From IMG/VR virus record IMGVR_UViG_2609460221_000003: 26,287 bases of DNA. One strand, given 5' to 3'. The notes beneath the pieces were generated by a model, which was not told the origin of the DNA, did no database searches, and saw nothing but the letters and a program-made list of their open reading frames with translations. The stretch is from a virus. Its lineage: Duplodnaviria; Heunggongvirae; Uroviricota; Caudoviricetes. Positions 3,478 to 7,922 of this stretch are shown piece after piece (within the stretch, counting starts at the first letter, position 1; the number at the start of each line of letters is the position of its first letter). The position numbers and the translations under genes are program-made.

Positions 3478-5220
3478 ACCCCTTATACCCTGATGCAGGC
3501 GATTGCAGCAGAAGGTGATGTGGTGGTCAGTGGTGCAACTGAGCCGGATTGGTACTACGTCATCGTACTGGCCGGGCAGTCCAATGCCATGGCTTACGGT
3601 GAAGGGCTTCCGCTGCCGGATTCATACGATGCGCCCCATCCGCGCATTAAGCAACTGGCCCGTCGTAACACAGTGACTCCCGGTGGTGAAGTATGCGTAT
3701 TTAACGACATCATTCCTGCTGACCATTGTCTGCATGATGTTCAGGATATGAGTACGATTAACCATCCCCGGGCTGACCTGAGCAAAGGGCAGTACGGCTG
3801 TGTCGGACAGGGCTTACATATTGCCAAAAAACTGCTTCCGTATATCCCTAATAACGCGGGGATCCTGCTGGTACCATGCTGTCGTGGTGGTTCGGCATTC
3901 ACCCAGGGCACGGAGGGGACATTCAGCGAGTCCACGGGGGCCAGTCAGGATTCGGCTCGCTGGGGAGTGGGTAAGCCGTTATATCAGGATCTGCTTTTCC
4001 GCACGAAGGCAGCATTGCAGAAAAACCCGAAAAACGTTTTGCTGGCGATATGCTGGATGCAGGGGGAATTCGATATGACGAATGCCAGTTACGCCCAGCA
4101 GCCAGCAGCATTTCTTGCAATGGTACAGCAGTTCCGTGCTGACCTTGCCGGGCTGGCGGCGCAGTGTCACGGTGGAAGTCCGGCATCAGTCCCCTGGATT
4201 TGTGGCGACACGACATACGCGTGGAAACAAGAACACGGTACGCAATATGAAGTGGTATATGGTGCATATAAAGGTAAAGAATCCCAGCAGATTTATTTTG
4301 TTCCCTTTATGACCGATGGTAGCGGAGTTAATACACCGACAAACAACCCGTCAGAAGATCCTGATATTGCCGGGTCTGGTTATTACGGTTCGGCATCCCG
4401 AACGAACAAAAACTGGGTATCATCAAATCGCCCGACGCATTTCAGCTCATGGGCGCGTCGTGGCATTATTCCCGATCGTATGGCAACTGCTATTCTGAAC
4501 GTAGCCGGTCGCACCTTAGCCTTCATTAGTGGTAAGGCACCGGAAATCAAACCCTCGCCCGGCGGCGACACTCCATCGGGGCCGTCTGATGGTGACACAT
4601 CCGTTCGTACAGTCTCCCTGCTGCCGACAGCCGGAGAGGCTGCTGCGCAGGGCTGGACCATCACCGGCGGCAGTGTTGCGCTGGAAGATGGTGTGTTTAA
4701 GGTTACCAAGCAGAGCAATAAAACTTGGTCCCTGATGCATCCGGTGGATGACGCAGTCTCCCTGCTGACACGGGGTGGCAGACTGAGCTGTAAGTTTCGA
4801 CTGTCAGGCGCACTGACCAACAACCAGTTCGGTCTGGGAATTTATCTGTATACCGATGTAGCGTTACCTGACGTCGTGGCGATGACCGGGACTGGTAACC
4901 CGTTCCTGATGTCGTTCTTCACCCAGACCACAGACGGCAAACTGAATCTGATGCATCACAGGAAAGCAGGAAACACAAAGTTGGGCGAGTTCGGGAATTA
5001 CAGTAACGACTGGCAGACGCTGGAGCTGGTGTTCACCGCCGGCAGTGCCACGGTTACTCCGAAACTGAATGGAGTGGCTGGCCCGGCATTCCAGGTCATA
5101 AAAGACAGTCTGACACTGGGGCTGAATGCGCTGACGCTGACGGATATTACCAAAAATGCAGCGTATGGCGTTGAGATAGAAAGTCTGGTGCTGGAGATAA
5201 ATGCACCAGCATCATCATAA
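3469..5220 (+). CDS. Prophage sialate 9-O-acetylesterase (NanS-p-like, SGNH/SASA hydrolase with C-terminal extension)
   Basis: 583-aa ORF. The N-terminal part carries the esterase signature (VIVLAGQSNAMAYGEG; WMQGEFD). It sits in the usual NanS-p position between Q/toxin locus and holin. The true start is probably ATG 3365 in another frame (see findings). Confidence 0.8.
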   Translation: MAITPYTLMQAIAAEGDVVVSGATEPDWYYVIVLAGQSNAMAYGEGLPLPDSYDAPHPRIKQLARRNTVTPGGEVCVFNDIIPADHCLHDVQDMSTINHPRADLSKGQYGCVGQGLHIAKKLLPYIPNNAGILLVPCCRGGSAFTQGTEGTFSESTGASQDSARWGVGKPLYQDLLFRTKAALQKNPKNVLLAICWMQGEFDMTNASYAQQPAAFLAMVQQFRADLAGLAAQCHGGSPASVPWICGDTTYAWKQEHGTQYEVVYGAYKGKESQQIYFVPFMTDGSGVNTPTNNPSEDPDIAGSGYYGSASRTNKNWVSSNRPTHFSSWARRGIIPDRMATAILNVAGRTLAFISGKAPEIKPSPGGDTPSGPSDGDTSVRTVSLLPTAGEAAAQGWTITGGSVALEDGVFKVTKQSNKTWSLMHPVDDAVSLLTRGGRLSCKFRLSGALTNNQFGLGIYLYTDVALPDVVAMTGTGNPFLMSFFTQTTDGKLNLMHHRKAGNTKLGEFGNYSNDWQTLELVFTAGSATVTPKLNGVAGPAFQVIKDSLTLGLNALTLTDITKNAAYGVEIESLVLEINAPASS

Positions 5221-5370
5221 AAAGTGAGCCAGTCAAATGGAAGGTATCGTTAAACTCACCGGTAGTGTCAGTGGGTCGTCTGAGATGCCTGCATGAGTTA
5301 TCAGAGCCATCAGTACTTAACTGGTGGCTTTTTTTATTGTTGTCAGCTTCCGGATAACGGGAGACGGGGT

Positions 5371-5586
5371 ATGTACCAGATGGAAAAAATCACAACAGGT
5401 GTGTCATACACCACGTCAGCGGTGGGAACGGGCTACTGGTTCCTGCAGTTGCTGGACAGGGTTTCCCCGTCTCAGTGGGCGGCAATAGGCGTGCTGGGGA
5501 GTCTGCTGTTTGGGCTGCTGACATATCTGACTAACCTGTATTTCAAAATCAGAGAGGACCGTCGTAAGGCTGCACGGGGAGAGTAA
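5371..5586 (+). CDS. S: Holin, phage 21-type pinholin (class II, dual start)
   Basis: 71-aa product with two transmembrane segments and charged C-terminus ([13 protein letters not shown]); dual-start motif MYQMEK with ATGs at 5371 and 5380. Preceded by a hairpin plus T-run at about 5304-5336. Confidence 0.85.
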
Positions 5587-5590
5587 TTCA

Positions 5591-5935
5591 ATGACTCAAA
5601 ACTATGAACTGATTGTGAAAGGGATCCGCAATTTTGAGAATAAAGTTACGGTAACTTTAGCGTTACGGGACAAAAAACGCTTTGACGGTGAAATTTTTGA
5701 CCTGGACATCTCGCTGGACCGTGTTGAAGGTGCCGCGCTGGAGTTTTATGAGGCAGCAGCCAGAAGGAGCATCAGACAGGTCTTCCTGGATGTTGCTGCC
5801 GGGTTATGTGAAGGGGATGAGCAGTCGCCGGAAAAGCGCCCCGTAATTTTAGAGGCGCAGGATGTGTTGATAACCTACAGAGGAAAACTACCGGGAATAA
5901 TTACGGGTTCTCTGAAGAGTCCGCCGAAATGGTAA
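5591..5935 (+). CDS. Hypothetical protein (114 aa) between holin and endolysin
   Basis: ATG 5591 lies 4 nt after the holin stop (translational coupling), GGGGAGAG upstream; no recognisable family. Confidence 0.5.
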   Translation: MTQNYELIVKGIRNFENKVTVTLALRDKKRFDGEIFDLDISLDRVEGAALEFYEAAARRSIRQVFLDVAAGLCEGDEQSPEKRPVILEAQDVLITYRGKLPGIITGSLKSPPKW

Positions 5936-6173
5936 TTTTACCAGCATATTTTTCATCCAGTAATACAGCAAGCCGCCTGAAAGAGTCTTGTTGTTCCTGA
6001 GACCATTTGGGATTGCATGATTCAAACTGGATTGATGCCAGCGTTGATTGCATCTGTTCCCTTGGAATTGAGAATGCCAGATATGAGAAGGCGACGGTAA
6101 GGGTATTCACGTCTTCCCGAAGCCTGGAAATGCTGTCGAGCAACTCCTGTAGAGAAATGGTGTTATTGTCCAT
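5901..6173 (-). CDS. Hypothetical protein (90 aa), antisense to the lysis operon
   Basis: Minus-strand ATG at 6173 with RBS GAGGA 6 nt upstream; converges on and overlaps the 3' end of the 5591-5935 gene by 35 bp; no recognisable family. Confidence 0.4.
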   Translation of the reverse strand: MDNNTISLQELLDSISRLREDVNTLTVAFSYLAFSIPREQMQSTLASIQFESCNPKWSQEQQDSFRRLAVLLDEKYAGKITISADSSENP

Positions 6174-6278
6174 AAATAATCCTCATGATTGTATTGACCT
6201 GTTAGCAGCCTGAGGCAACAGGCTGGAACTGATAAACATATCCAGGGCTCAGAAACCGATAAATCCTGATAAATATCC

Positions 6279-6812
6279 ATGAACGCAAAAATCAGATACG
6301 GCCTGTCGGCTGCCGTTCTGGCGCTGATTGCCGCTGGTGCGCCTGCGCCTGACATTCTCGACCAGTTTCTGGATGAAAAGGAAGGTAACCACACCACGGC
6401 ATACCGTGATGGCGCGGGTATCTGGACCATCTGCCGCGGTGCCATCCTGGTGGATGGCAAACCTGTCGTTCCGGGCATGAAGTTGTCGAAGGAAAAATGC
6501 GACCGGGTTAACGCCATTGAGCGTGATAAGGCGCTGGCATGGGTGGAGAAAAACATCAGAGTGCCATTGAGTGAACCCCAGAAAGCGGGGATCGCGTCAT
6601 TCTGTCCGTACAACATTGGCCCCGGTAAGTGTTTTCCGTCGACGTTTTATAAACGAATTAATGCAGGTGATCGCAGGGGAGCGTGTGAGGCGATTCGCTG
6701 GTGGATTAAGGACGGTGGCAGAGACTGCCGTATTCGCTCAAATAACTGTTACGGTCAGGTATCCCGTCGTGACCAGGAGAGCGCGCTAGCGTGCTGGGGA
6801 ATCGACAGATAA
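6279..6812 (+). CDS. R: SAR endolysin (lysozyme, glycoside hydrolase family 24 / T4-lysozyme-like) with N-terminal signal-anchor-release segment
   Basis: 177 aa; Gly/Ala-rich weakly hydrophobic N-terminus (GLSAAVLALIAAGAPAP) followed by the catalytic E-x8-D-x5-T pattern (EKEGNHTTAYRDGAGIWT). Pairs with a pinholin as in phage 21. Confidence 0.85.
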   Translation: MNAKIRYGLSAAVLALIAAGAPAPDILDQFLDEKEGNHTTAYRDGAGIWTICRGAILVDGKPVVPGMKLSKEKCDRVNAIERDKALAWVEKNIRVPLSEPQKAGIASFCPYNIGPGKCFPSTFYKRINAGDRRGACEAIRWWIKDGGRDCRIRSNNCYGQVSRRDQESALACWGIDR

Positions 6813-6902
6813 GCAGAATATTTTGCTAATAAATGACGTTGGCCAAGGCGGACGGATAACACGAAATCCTGCGAACTGGCAAAATGTAAGTGAATAAAAG
6901 TA

Positions 6903-6941
6903 AAAACCCCGTTTGTTGGCAGCAAGCGGGGTTTTGTTTTT
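6903..6941 (+). terminator. Intrinsic terminator downstream of endolysin
   Basis: AAAAA-CCCCG-(15-nt loop)-CGGGG followed by TTTTGTTTTT. Confidence 0.6.
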
Positions 6942-7104
6942 ATGGCAGTAAGCTATGGGAGGCTGCCTTGATTGATTTTAGCAAACTGATTAGGGAGTTG
7001 CGACTCATGATTAGTCAATTACCAAACTGGAAATTTTTGCTGGTCTGGAGCATCCCTTTTTTATGGGTAGTATCCCAGTTAATTGTGGCAATTAAGGGGT
7101 AGCT

Positions 7105-7236
7105 ATGTCAGACAAACTCATAACGCCGGCAAAGGTCCTGTGTGTGATTGTCGGTATTTCATTTTCACTAATGCTGGTTGCTCTTTTTCTGTCCCTCGCC
7201 TGGGTGATGTTGTCTTCGTCGGGGCTGCTGGGGTGA
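7105..7236 (+). CDS. Small hydrophobic peptide (43 aa, single predicted transmembrane helix)
   Basis: ATG 7105 with RBS AAGGGG 5 nt upstream; MSDKLITPAKVLCVIVGISFSLMLVALFLSLAWVMLSSSGLLG; stop overlaps the next small ORF (GTGA). Confidence 0.3.
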   Translation: MSDKLITPAKVLCVIVGISFSLMLVALFLSLAWVMLSSSGLLG

Positions 7237-7355
7237 CAGTGACTGATGACATCAGCAGAGCGCTGGCTTTTGCTATTAAGTGGGTGGCTGTTGGTATTGC
7301 TGTGTCTCCGATGCTGTATGGGCTGGCAAAACTGGTCATTGCGCTGAAATCGTGA
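7233..7355 (+). CDS. Small hydrophobic peptide (40 aa), paralog of the 7367-7453 peptide
   Basis: GTG start overlapping the upstream stop; shares the motif RA(L/M)AFAI(K/R)(W/I)VA(V/I) with the next peptide, and similarity is visible at the DNA level. Confidence 0.25.
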   Translation: MTVTDDISRALAFAIKWVAVGIAVSPMLYGLAKLVIALKS

Positions 7356-7366
7356 ACTTTAAAAAG

Positions 7367-7453
7367 ATGAGTGCTGAACTTATTCGGGCAATGGCATTTG
7401 CCATTCGTATTGTGGCCATTGCTGTTCTGGTCTGGGCAATCCGTTGGTGGTGA
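7367..7453 (+). CDS. Small hydrophobic peptide (28 aa), paralog of the 7233-7355 peptide
   Basis: ATG 7367; [28 protein letters not shown]; stop TGA sits 1 nt before the Rz start. No clear RBS. Confidence 0.25.
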
Positions 7454-7454
7454 T

Positions 7455-7922
7455 ATGAACCGTGTTCTGTGTGTGGTGATTATTGTCCTGCTGGTAGCCT
7501 GTGGTGTGCTTAGTCTGGGGCTGAATCATTACCGCGATAACGCCATCACCTACAAAGCGCAGCGCGATAAAAAAGTCAGTGAGCTGAAACTGGCGAACGC
7601 GACAATTACTGATATGCAGATACGCCAGCGTGATGTCGCTGAACTTGATGCCAGATACTCGAGGGAATTAGCCGATGCGAGAGCTGAAAATGAAACTCTG
7701 CGTGCTGATGTTGCCGCTGGTCGTAAGCGCCTGCGGATCAACGCCACCTGCTCCGGTACAGTGCGTGAAGCCACCGGCACCTCCGGCGTGGATAATGCAA
7801 CCGGCCCCCGACTGGCAGACACCGCTGAACGGGATTATTTCATCCTCAGAGAACGGTTGATGACAATGCAGAAGCAGCTGGAAGGGGCACAGGACTATAT
7901 CCGCACTCAGTGCCTGAACTAA
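7455..7922 (+). CDS. Rz: Spanin inner-membrane subunit Rz (i-spanin)
   Basis: Translation closely matches lambda Rz ([16 protein letters not shown]...[11 protein letters not shown]...[13 protein letters not shown]); N-terminal transmembrane helix. ATG 7455 chosen over the longer track ORF start at 7371. Confidence 0.9.
7675..7860 (+). CDS. Rz1: Spanin outer-membrane lipoprotein subunit Rz1 (o-spanin), embedded in the +1 frame of Rz
   Basis: 61 aa, lipobox LVVSAC, proline-rich ([26 protein letters not shown]), matching lambda Rz1; fully nested inside Rz. Confidence 0.85.

What the first reader, a model, noticed from the sequence alone, without database searches (positions are those of the whole stretch)
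5591..6278. Two unknown convergent genes inserted between pinholin and SAR endolysin
In phage 21 and lambda, S is followed directly by R. Here a 114-aa gene is translationally coupled to the holin, and a 90-aa minus-strand gene with a good RBS (GAGGA) converges on it with 35-bp 3' overlap, before R begins at 6279 without an obvious RBS. An antisense gene inside a lysis cassette could modulate lysis timing by transcriptional interference or act as a cargo/defence module; neither protein has a family I recognise.
Basis: seen in the sequence. Interest (0 to 1): 0.55.

Follow-up and report, generated by a model that had tools for sequence, protein, structure and literature searches.

The report
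YdfR plus antisense cargo gene
The two genes between the holin and the endolysin are real but ordinary: a common E. coli prophage accessory pair, made of a YdfR-family protein and a small antisense-encoded helical protein of unknown function, sitting in a slot of the lysis cassette that different phages fill with different cargo.

Summary
An S21-type holin (5371-5586) is followed 4 nt later by a 114-aa gene (5591-5935). A 90-aa minus-strand gene (5901-6173, GAGGA Shine-Dalgarno) converges on it with a 35-bp overlap. The SAR-type endolysin starts at 6279 without a Shine-Dalgarno sequence.

Neither gene lacks a family. The plus gene is DUF1327/YdfR (Pfam 7e-43), the same family as ydfR in the essQ-ydfR-rrrQ arrangement of the K-12 Qin prophage. 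K-12 YdfR was recently reported to bind the RNase E catalytic domain and to co-purify RNA. The minus gene matches phrog_2411 over its full length.

The minus gene is genuinely coding. Its dN/dS is about 0.25, and it is the only frame open in all 7 diverged copies. Homologues at 25-41% identity occur in Klebsiella, Atlantibacter, Sodalis, and on E. coli plasmids and islands ('Ybl58'). YdfR DNA is in 4305 of 5426 complete E. coli genomes, and the two-gene module is in 1129, already annotated by PGAP.

Related phages have nothing, this gene, or unrelated minus-strand genes at the same place, and the module is lower in GC than its flanks. The best reading is moron-like cargo, not a core lysis component. 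Function stays unknown: structure, PADLOC and Rfam searches gave nothing. Interest is modest.

The parts
5303..5331 (+). Intrinsic-terminator-like hairpin plus T-run just upstream of the holin gene. It is context only, and would presumably be read through by Q-modified RNA polymerase.
   Evidence: 12-bp stem, 5 GC pairs, TTTTATTGTT tail
5371..5586 (+). S21-type class II holin (pinholin family) with a dual start at M1/M4
   Evidence: PF04971 9e-33; phrog_9876 and phrog_20, both holin; annotated 'class II holin family protein' in relatives
5591..5935 (+). YdfR-family (DUF1327) protein of 114 aa. It has an N-terminal beta-beta-beta-alpha domain (about residues 1-72), a linker, and a C-terminal tail ...GIITGSLKSPPKW. 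It starts 4 nt after the holin stop codon.
   Evidence: PF07041 7.3e-43; phrog_406 4e-68; 318 homologues; AF2 model; same position as ydfR in K-12 Qin
5901..6173 (-). Ybl58-like / phrog_2411 protein of 90 aa. It is acidic (pI 4.5), soluble, and predicted to be a three-helix bundle. It is transcribed against the late operon.
   Evidence: phrog_2411 1e-58 over the full length; dN/dS 0.25 and the only open frame; 62 close homologues and remote ones at 25-41% identity; AF2 pLDDT 73 with helices 8-34, 38-52, 59-77; pI and hydropathy
5901..5935 (.). 35-bp 3'-3' overlap of the two convergent genes. It codes the YdfR tail on one strand and the disordered C-terminus of the minus protein on the other.
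   Evidence: the overlap is 7-35 bp in homologous modules
6180..6218 (-). Upstream signals of the minus gene: GAGGA Shine-Dalgarno (6184-6180), a conserved TACAAT (6193-6188), and a TTGCCT -35-like hexamer (6218-6213) at a non-canonical 19-nt spacing.
   Evidence: sequence; GAGGATT conserved in 7 of 7 diverged copies, TACAAT in 6 of 7 with CACAAT in the seventh; no 16-18-nt-spaced promoter found
6206..6225 (.). Short hairpin CAGCCTG-aggcaa-CAGGCTG between the minus gene and the endolysin leader. It lies at the position where other cargo types carry a GC-rich hairpin. It is not thermodynamically significant.
   Evidence: z-scores -0.8 to -0.9
6235..6278 (+). Conserved A/U-rich endolysin leader without a Shine-Dalgarno sequence (AACATATCCAGGG...GATAAATCCTGATAAATATCC). 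It is shared by the four arrangements that have a spacer or cargo between ydfR and R, and marks the right edge of the cargo slot.
   Evidence: window, BP-4795, SBF22, phage 86 and PhiR5_1 share it; K-12 Qin keeps only its last few bases
6279..6812 (+). SAR-type T4-lysozyme-family endolysin, like RrrQ/RrrD
   Evidence: PF00959 1.3e-23; phrog_7 endolysin; annotated rrrQ lysozyme in relatives

Best explanation
The interval holds two genuine protein-coding genes. They form a common, dispensable accessory module of S21-type lysis cassettes in Escherichia prophages.

(1) Plus gene, 5591-5935. This is a YdfR/DUF1327 protein. It is transcribed with the late operon and is probably translationally coupled to the holin, given the 4-nt gap. 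By analogy with K-12 YdfR, its N-terminal domain is likely to contact the catalytic half of RNase E and/or RNA late in infection. That function is inferred, not shown here.

(2) Minus gene, 5901-6173. This belongs to an Enterobacterales-wide family of soluble, acidic three-helix proteins of about 90 aa (Ybl58-like, phrog_2411). The family rides on prophages, plasmids, islands and chromosomes. In this prophage it sits as moron-like cargo in a variable slot between the ydfR stop codon and the conserved endolysin leader.

Because the minus gene points against the late operon, it must be expressed from its own weak, non-canonical promoter. That should happen mainly when late transcription is off, in the lysogen or early in infection. 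Q-dependent late transcription should then occlude it or pair with its mRNA. It most likely acts on a host or phage cytoplasmic target and not in lysis itself.

Shown here: gene reality, family membership, slot variability, and distribution. Inferred: expression timing, RNase E binding by this orthologue, and the cytoplasmic regulatory role.
For: Gene reality
- Pfam DUF1327 at 145 bits.
- phrog_406 and phrog_2411 matched over their full length.
- Minus-frame dN/dS 0.25, with zero stops in 7 of 7 diverged copies. Every other frame has stops in most copies.
- 11 distinct DNA versions among 83 loci, all intact.
- Remote homologues of the same length, 81-97 aa at 25-41% identity, in Klebsiella, Atlantibacter, Sodalis and E. 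coli.

Dispensable, variable slot
- K-12 Qin has essQ-ydfR-rrrQ with no minus gene.
- BP-4795 and SBF22 have ydfR, then 50-63 bp, then R.
- Phage 86 and PhiR5_1 carry unrelated minus-strand genes at the same place.
- These four arrangements and the window share the same endolysin leader.
- YdfR DNA is in 4305 of 5426 complete genomes. The full module is in 1129.

Cargo character
- GC is 41-48% in the module, against 53-55% in S and R and 54.8% in the window.
- Family members sit antisense to late genes at other prophage sites: between tail genes M and L in Atlantibacter, and near the terminase in Klebsiella.
- Family members also occur outside phages: next to an AIDA autotransporter, between dinI and bssS, and next to a P-type ATPase.

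Soluble and acidic
- pI 4.5, no hydrophobic segment, three helices.

YdfR function lead
- PMC13232886 reports bacterial two-hybrid and pull-down evidence that K-12 YdfR binds RNase E 1-597/598. Residues 1-72 suffice, and RNA co-purifies.
Against: - No canonical sigma-70 promoter (16-18-nt spacer) and no intrinsic terminator was found for the minus gene. Two defining moron features are therefore unproven.
- No expression data were available.
- In 89 of 91 loci the minus gene is locked to ydfR at a fixed offset.
- In four further genera or contexts its convergent neighbour also ends in an [IL]xG[SD][LI]xxP tail. This hints at functional coupling and not at independent cargo.
- The RNase E data come from the 103-aa K-12 protein, which has a different C-terminus. 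In that study overexpression changed few transcripts.
- Fold searches gave only generic matches.
Confidence: 0.55

Rival explanations
1. The two genes are a functionally coupled pair. One version: the three-helix protein binds the C-terminal ITGSLKxPP tail of YdfR, for example to hold YdfR inactive in the lysogen. Another version: the convergent, overlapping transcripts pair and are cut by RNase III, much as lambda OOP RNA acts on cII. That would tune the holin-to-endolysin ratio and so lysis timing.
For: - The offset and convergent overlap are fixed in 89 of 91 loci.
- In Citrobacter the minus gene is again convergent and overlapping with a 238-aa protein ending KITGSLRVPMKL. There the pair lies upstream of a different holin/endolysin set.
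- Similar tails occur on the convergent partners in L088 (IIGSLITPPEL), Atlantibacter (IFGDLKKPPSY) and Klebsiella (LTGDILIPLES).
- In most of these the motif lies outside the overlapped bases, so the minus ORF does not force it.
- hhalign of the YdfR profile against the Atlantibacter partner gives E = 0.0032.
- The late transcript is necessarily fully antisense to the minus gene.
Against: - ydfR with the same tail is common without the minus gene.
- Minus-family genes occur with no such partner in three contexts.
- One convergent partner lacks the motif.
- The hhalign probability is only 10%, and two other comparisons gave nothing.
- A physical overlap alone can explain co-inheritance.
- No complex prediction could be run.
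Confidence: 0.2
2. The minus gene is an anti-defence or counter-silencing cargo gene: a small acidic protein that neutralises a host nucleic-acid-binding factor such as H-NS or a restriction/defence component. Alternatively it is a prophage-encoded defence or exclusion factor.
For: - It is small, acidic (pI 4.5), helical and soluble.
- It is carried on prophages, plasmids and islands.
- It sits in a variable cargo slot.
- There is a weak local match of residues 52-69 (NPKWSQEQQ...) to the LUZ24 Gp4/Mip anti-silencing protein (NCBIfam NF041858 E = 0.037; PDB 6yse E = 1.2).
Against: - The Mip match is 13.7 bits against a cut-off of 50, covers only 15-18 residues, and is not significant.
- There are no PADLOC hits for either protein.
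- No structural match was found.
- There is no experimental hint.
Confidence: 0.15
3. The minus-strand ORF is a non-functional antisense ORF, an annotation artefact. Only ydfR and a long untranslated spacer are real.
For: - There is no Pfam or NCBIfam family.
- A minority of database copies are frameshifted or truncated.
- No clear promoter or terminator was found.
Against: - dN/dS is 0.25 where nothing is coded on the other strand.
- It is the only open frame in all diverged copies, with a conserved start codon and Shine-Dalgarno sequence.
- Homologues down to 25% identity keep the same length and helix pattern across genera, with dS saturated.
- About 800 of about 860 distinct database sequences are intact.
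Confidence: 0.03

Closest known systems
ydfR of the E. coli K-12 Qin prophage (essQ-ydfR-rrrQ-rzpQ); Pfam DUF1327 / YdfR family
   Same: It belongs to the same Pfam family. It has the same position immediately (4 nt) after a class II holin and before an RrrQ-type lysozyme. The first ~200 nt are about 89% identical at DNA level.
   Different: The K-12 protein is 103 aa with a different C-terminus, and its stop overlaps the lysozyme start (ATGA). The window's protein is 114 aa with the ITGSLKSPPKW tail. It is separated from R by 343 bp that hold an antisense gene.
Lambdoid 'morons' and lysogenic-conversion genes in the late region, for example lambda bor next to Rz, or ant between R and Rz of Stx phages
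   Same: It is an optional gene inserted between conserved late genes. Its GC content is atypical. It is present or absent among close relatives. Like bor, it is oriented against late transcription (the bor orientation is visible).
   Different: No recognisable sigma-70 promoter or terminator flanks it. It overlaps the 3' end of the neighbouring gene. It encodes a cytoplasmic helical protein, not a lipoprotein or outer-membrane protein.
Ybl58-like hypothetical proteins (PHROG 2411 and its paralogue cluster P0183 on E. coli plasmids and islands)
   Same: They share the length of about 90 aa, the conserved core L..I..L...VN.L..AF.YL.F, and the predicted three-helix architecture.
   Different: The paralogues sit in non-phage contexts: next to an AIDA-type autotransporter, between dinI and bssS, and next to a metal ATPase. 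They have no YdfR-like convergent partner there.
Phage 21 S21/R21 pinholin and SAR-endolysin cassette
   Same: The holin family (PF04971), the dual-start motif, the SAR-type lysozyme and the embedded Rz/Rz1 are as in phage 21.
   Different: From my own knowledge, phage 21 has S directly followed by R. Here 692 bp (5587-6278) with two extra genes intervene.
Lambda OOP RNA / cII, a convergent 3'-overlapping antisense pair
   Same: Two convergent transcription units overlap at their 3' ends, so in principle RNase III-dependent mutual regulation is possible.
   Different: Here both partners encode conserved proteins. No antisense RNA function has been shown. This is a resemblance in layout only.

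Membership tests
DUF1327 / YdfR family (PF07041) | Pfam HMM score above the gathering threshold | tested here: met
   145.2 bits against a cut-off of 25, E = 7.3e-43, residues 1-111; phrog_406 4e-68
DUF1327 / YdfR family (PF07041) | Location directly downstream of a class II holin in a lambdoid lysis cassette | tested here: met
   The same 4-nt S-to-ydfR spacing is seen in K-12 Qin, BL21, SBF22, BP-4795 and phage 86
DUF1327 / YdfR family (PF07041) | Binding of the RNase E N-terminal catalytic half or of RNA (reported for K-12 YdfR only) | not testable with these tools
   PMC13232886. The N-terminal 72 residues that sufficed there are conserved here.
PHROG 2411 / Ybl58-like small helical proteins | Full-length profile match and conserved length of about 90 aa | tested here: met
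   phrog_2411 1.1e-58, residues 1-90 of 90; profile search recovers members of 81-97 aa
PHROG 2411 / Ybl58-like small helical proteins | Evolves under purifying selection as a protein | tested here: met
   dN/dS 0.25 (pairwise range 0.09-0.31), third-position excess, no stops in 7 of 7 copies
Moron (autonomous accessory transcription unit in a lambdoid late region) | Present or absent between conserved flanking genes in related phages | tested here: met
Moron (autonomous accessory transcription unit in a lambdoid late region) | Base composition different from the flanks | tested here: met
   GC is 44.5% in the gene and 41% in the intergenic region, against 53-55% in S and R
Moron (autonomous accessory transcription unit in a lambdoid late region) | Own promoter | tested here: inconclusive
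   No hit in the consensus scan. There is a conserved TACAAT with a TTGCCT at a 19-nt spacing.
Moron (autonomous accessory transcription unit in a lambdoid late region) | Own intrinsic terminator | tested here: not met
   There is no terminator-like site downstream on the minus strand. Folding of 5810-5900 (minus strand) gives z = -1.3.
S21 pinholin / SAR-endolysin lysis cassette | PF04971 holin with dual start; lysozyme with an N-terminal SAR segment and the E-8-D-5-T motif; Rz with embedded Rz1 | tested here: met
   Rz is 7371-7922 and Rz1 is 7675-7860, with lipobox-like ...LVVSAC. SAR function itself was not tested.
Toxin-antitoxin system (type I or type II) | Co-directional operon with a known toxin or antitoxin domain (type II), or a small hydrophobic toxin with an antisense RNA (type I) | tested here: not met
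   The orientation is convergent. There are no toxin or antitoxin domains. Both proteins are soluble. There are no Rfam hits.
Known anti-phage defence systems (PADLOC-DB) | HMM match to a defence component | tested here: not met
   No hits at E <= 0.1 for either protein or for the alternative cargo genes
Mip anti-silencing protein (NF041858; LUZ24 Gp4) | Score above the NCBIfam cut-off of 50 bits | tested here: not met
   13.7 bits, E = 0.037, 15 residues; PDB 6yse E = 1.2

The most novel reading that the evidence does not exclude
The Ybl58-like three-helix gene and the [IL]xG[SD][LI]xxP-tailed gene that converges on it may form a previously unrecognised mobile two-gene module of Enterobacterales prophages. 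In this reading the products, or the overlapping transcripts, interact. The antisense-encoded protein would be made in the lysogen and would neutralise, or time the action of, the late-expressed partner. That partner is an RNase E-binding YdfR, so host RNA decay would be linked to the lysis programme.
Probability: 0.12. Interest if true: 0.6.

Novelty: new member of a known kind. Interest (0 to 1): 0.3.

Why it matters
If the reading is right, this is routine prophage cargo, and the value of the work is mostly clean-up. It gives family names to two 'unknown' genes. It shows that the antisense ORF is a genuine, selected gene present in about a fifth of complete E. coli genomes, including the laboratory strain BL21. 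It defines a cargo slot inside the S21-type lysis cassette, bounded by the ydfR stop codon and a conserved endolysin leader that lacks a Shine-Dalgarno sequence.

The wider interest is conditional. YdfR is one of very few proteins reported to contact the catalytic half of RNase E, and it is encoded between a holin and an endolysin. A conserved antisense partner gene offers a simple genetic handle for asking what YdfR does during phage development.

Tried and rejected
- **Pfam and NCBIfam for the minus protein.** Nothing significant was found.
- **PADLOC for both proteins and the alternative cargo genes.** No hits.
- **Rfam at E <= 1 over 5200-7400.** No hits.
- **PDB sequence-profile searches for both families.** Only chance-level hits. 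The Mip/Gp4 match is the same 15-18-residue coincidence seen in NCBIfam, so I rejected it as evidence.
- **afdb50 fold search.** The library was unavailable.
- **Promoter and terminator scan, and RNA folding around the minus gene.** There is no canonical promoter, no terminator, and z-scores lie between -0.8 and -1.3.
- **Comparison with the minus-strand genes of phage 86 and PhiR5_1.** They are unrelated to the window's gene. The 'DUF1823' label in the PhiR5_1 record was not reproduced by Pfam.
- **Second IMG/VR scan with the broad family alignment.** It returned only the Escherichia copies.
- **Comparison of the Citrobacter 238-aa partner with YdfR.** BLASTP and hhalign were not significant. 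Its relation to DUF1327 rests only on the shared tail and layout.
- **Literature searches.** Searches for the RefSeq accessions, 'ybl58' and 'phrog_2411' found nothing. 'DUF1327' appears in one genome paper only.
- **The + strand ORF 6007-6213.** Its low dN/dS is the expected wobble-sharing artefact of the antisense frame, and it has stops in 5 of 7 homologues.

Full report
**1. What is in the sequence**

The window is a Stx-phage-like lambdoid prophage of Escherichia. The gene order is DUF968, RusA, Q, a SASA-family esterase, the lysis genes, then terminase and head genes.

- A 71-codon holin gene (5371-5586) ends with TAA at 5584-5586.
- A 114-codon ORF starts 4 nt later (ATG 5591, stop 5935), behind a GGAG.
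- A 90-codon ORF runs on the minus strand from 6173 to 5901, with GAGGA 6 nt before its ATG.
- The two ORFs overlap by 35 bp at their 3' ends.
- The endolysin ORF starts at 6279 behind ...GATAAATCCTGATAAATATCC, with no Shine-Dalgarno match.

- The holin matches PF04971, the phage 21 S family, at 9e-33, and has the M1/M4 dual start.
- The lysozyme matches PF00959 at 1e-23. It has a Gly/Ala-rich N-terminal segment and the E-8-D-5-T motif.
- Rz (7371-7922) with embedded Rz1 (7675-7860) lies further downstream.

**2. The plus-strand gene is YdfR**

The 114-aa protein matches Pfam DUF1327 at 145 bits, against a cut-off of 25, and phrog_406 over its whole length. This is the family of ydfR in the K-12 Qin prophage. 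There the order is essQ-ydfR-rrrQ-rzpQ, with the same 4-nt holin-to-ydfR spacing.

Megablast finds YdfR DNA in 4305 of 5426 complete E. coli genomes, and PGAP names it 'YdfR family protein'. The protein search found 318 relatives. Nearly all that carry a source name are from Escherichia or Shigella. Lengths cluster at 103-104, 114-116 and 176-196 aa.

The only functional data I found are in PMC13232886 (RNA Biol 2026).
- K-12 YdfR was recovered in a bacterial two-hybrid screen.
- It interacts with RNase E 1-597 and, more weakly, with RNase G.
- It co-purifies with RNase E 1-598.
- Its first 72 residues suffice for the interaction.
- Its preparations carry DNase-resistant nucleic acid.
- Overexpression changed few transcripts.

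That study used the 103-aa K-12 variant. Transfer of the result to this 114-aa protein is an inference.

**3. The minus-strand gene is genuine and belongs to a wider family**

It has no Pfam or NCBIfam family but matches phrog_2411 from end to end at 1e-58. RefSeq annotates it as a hypothetical protein, WP_000369850.

I took seven copies spanning Escherichia, E. albertii, phage Chlobot and Citrobacter, and restricted the analysis to the 78 codons that do not overlap ydfR.
- The annotated frame has mean dN/dS of 0.25 among the five Escherichia copies. Pairwise values across all copies run from 0.09 to 0.31.
- It has no stop codon in any copy.
- Variable sites fall 19/14/35 by codon position.
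- The opposite-strand frame that shares wobble positions gives a similar ratio, as expected. It carries stops in 5 of 7 copies, and the other four frames have ratios of 0.8-1.4 with multiple stops.

All 11 distinct DNA versions among the 83 matching loci are intact. In the protein database, about 800 of about 860 distinct sequences are full length. The rest include frameshifted forms, such as those labelled 'ybl58'.

An exhaustive profile search found homologues of the same size at 25-41% identity.
- Klebsiella prophages, near the terminase.
- An Atlantibacter hermannii prophage, between tail genes M and L.
- The Sodalis ligni chromosome.
- An unidentified genome, between dinI and bssS.
- A very common E. 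coli paralogue next to an AIDA-type autotransporter, also found on a plasmid.

**4. The surroundings define a cargo slot**

Five arrangements exist between the YdfR N-domain and the endolysin.
- K-12 Qin: ydfR overlaps R through ATGA.
- BP-4795 and SBF22: ydfR, then 50-63 bp, then R.
- This window and 1129 complete genomes, including BL21's Rac remnant: ydfR, the 90-aa minus gene, then R.
- Phage 86: a 268-aa DUF1327 protein plus an unrelated 104-aa minus-strand gene.
- PhiR5_1: a 211-aa DUF1327 protein plus another unrelated 86-aa minus-strand gene.

The last four of these keep the same ~45-nt endolysin leader without a Shine-Dalgarno sequence. K-12 Qin, where ydfR is coupled directly to R, retains only its final bases. 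The variable segment therefore lies between the ydfR stop and that leader. The module is also lower in GC (41-48%) than S, R and the window as a whole (53-55%).

This is the pattern expected of accessory 'moron' cargo. It also shows that neither gene is needed for holin-endolysin lysis as such.

**5. Expression signals**

Upstream of the minus gene, GAGGATT is conserved in all seven diverged copies. TACAAT lies 15-20 nt before the ATG and is conserved in six of them, reading CACAAT in the seventh. The only -35-like hexamer, TTGCCT, sits at a 19-nt spacing. The consensus scan, which uses 16-18 nt, found nothing there.

No intrinsic terminator follows the gene, and folding energies of the flanking RNA are unremarkable. 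Rfam has no match. Autonomous transcription is therefore plausible but unproven. Because of its orientation, the gene cannot be read from the late promoter.

**6. An unexplained regularity**

In 89 of 91 loci the minus gene converges on ydfR at a fixed offset. The two exceptions are Citrobacter-type. There it converges on, and overlaps, a 238-aa protein that is not detectably DUF1327. That protein ends in KITGSLRVPMKL, and the pair sits upstream of a different holin/endolysin/Rz set.

The convergent partners of the Atlantibacter and Klebsiella homologues are short proteins that also end in IFGDLKKPPSY and LTGDILIPLES. In most cases the motif lies outside the overlapped bases, so the minus ORF does not impose it.

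The statistics are weak. The best hhalign result is E = 0.0032 at 10% probability, and two comparisons gave nothing. One partner lacks the motif, and three family members have no partner at all. I therefore keep functional coupling as a rival at about 0.2 and do not adopt it.

**7. Verdict**

It is partly wrong: both proteins have families, and one is the well-known ydfR.

The best-supported account has two parts.
- A late-expressed, holin-coupled YdfR protein with a likely RNase E or RNA-related role.
- A moron-like, antisense-oriented Ybl58-family gene, probably expressed when late transcription is off, encoding a small cytoplasmic helical protein of unknown target.

Identical sequence is already annotated in hundreds of genomes, so this is a new (uncharacterised) member of a known kind. 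The interest is modest. It lies mainly in the link between an RNase E-binding protein and a lysis cassette, and in the possible two-gene module.

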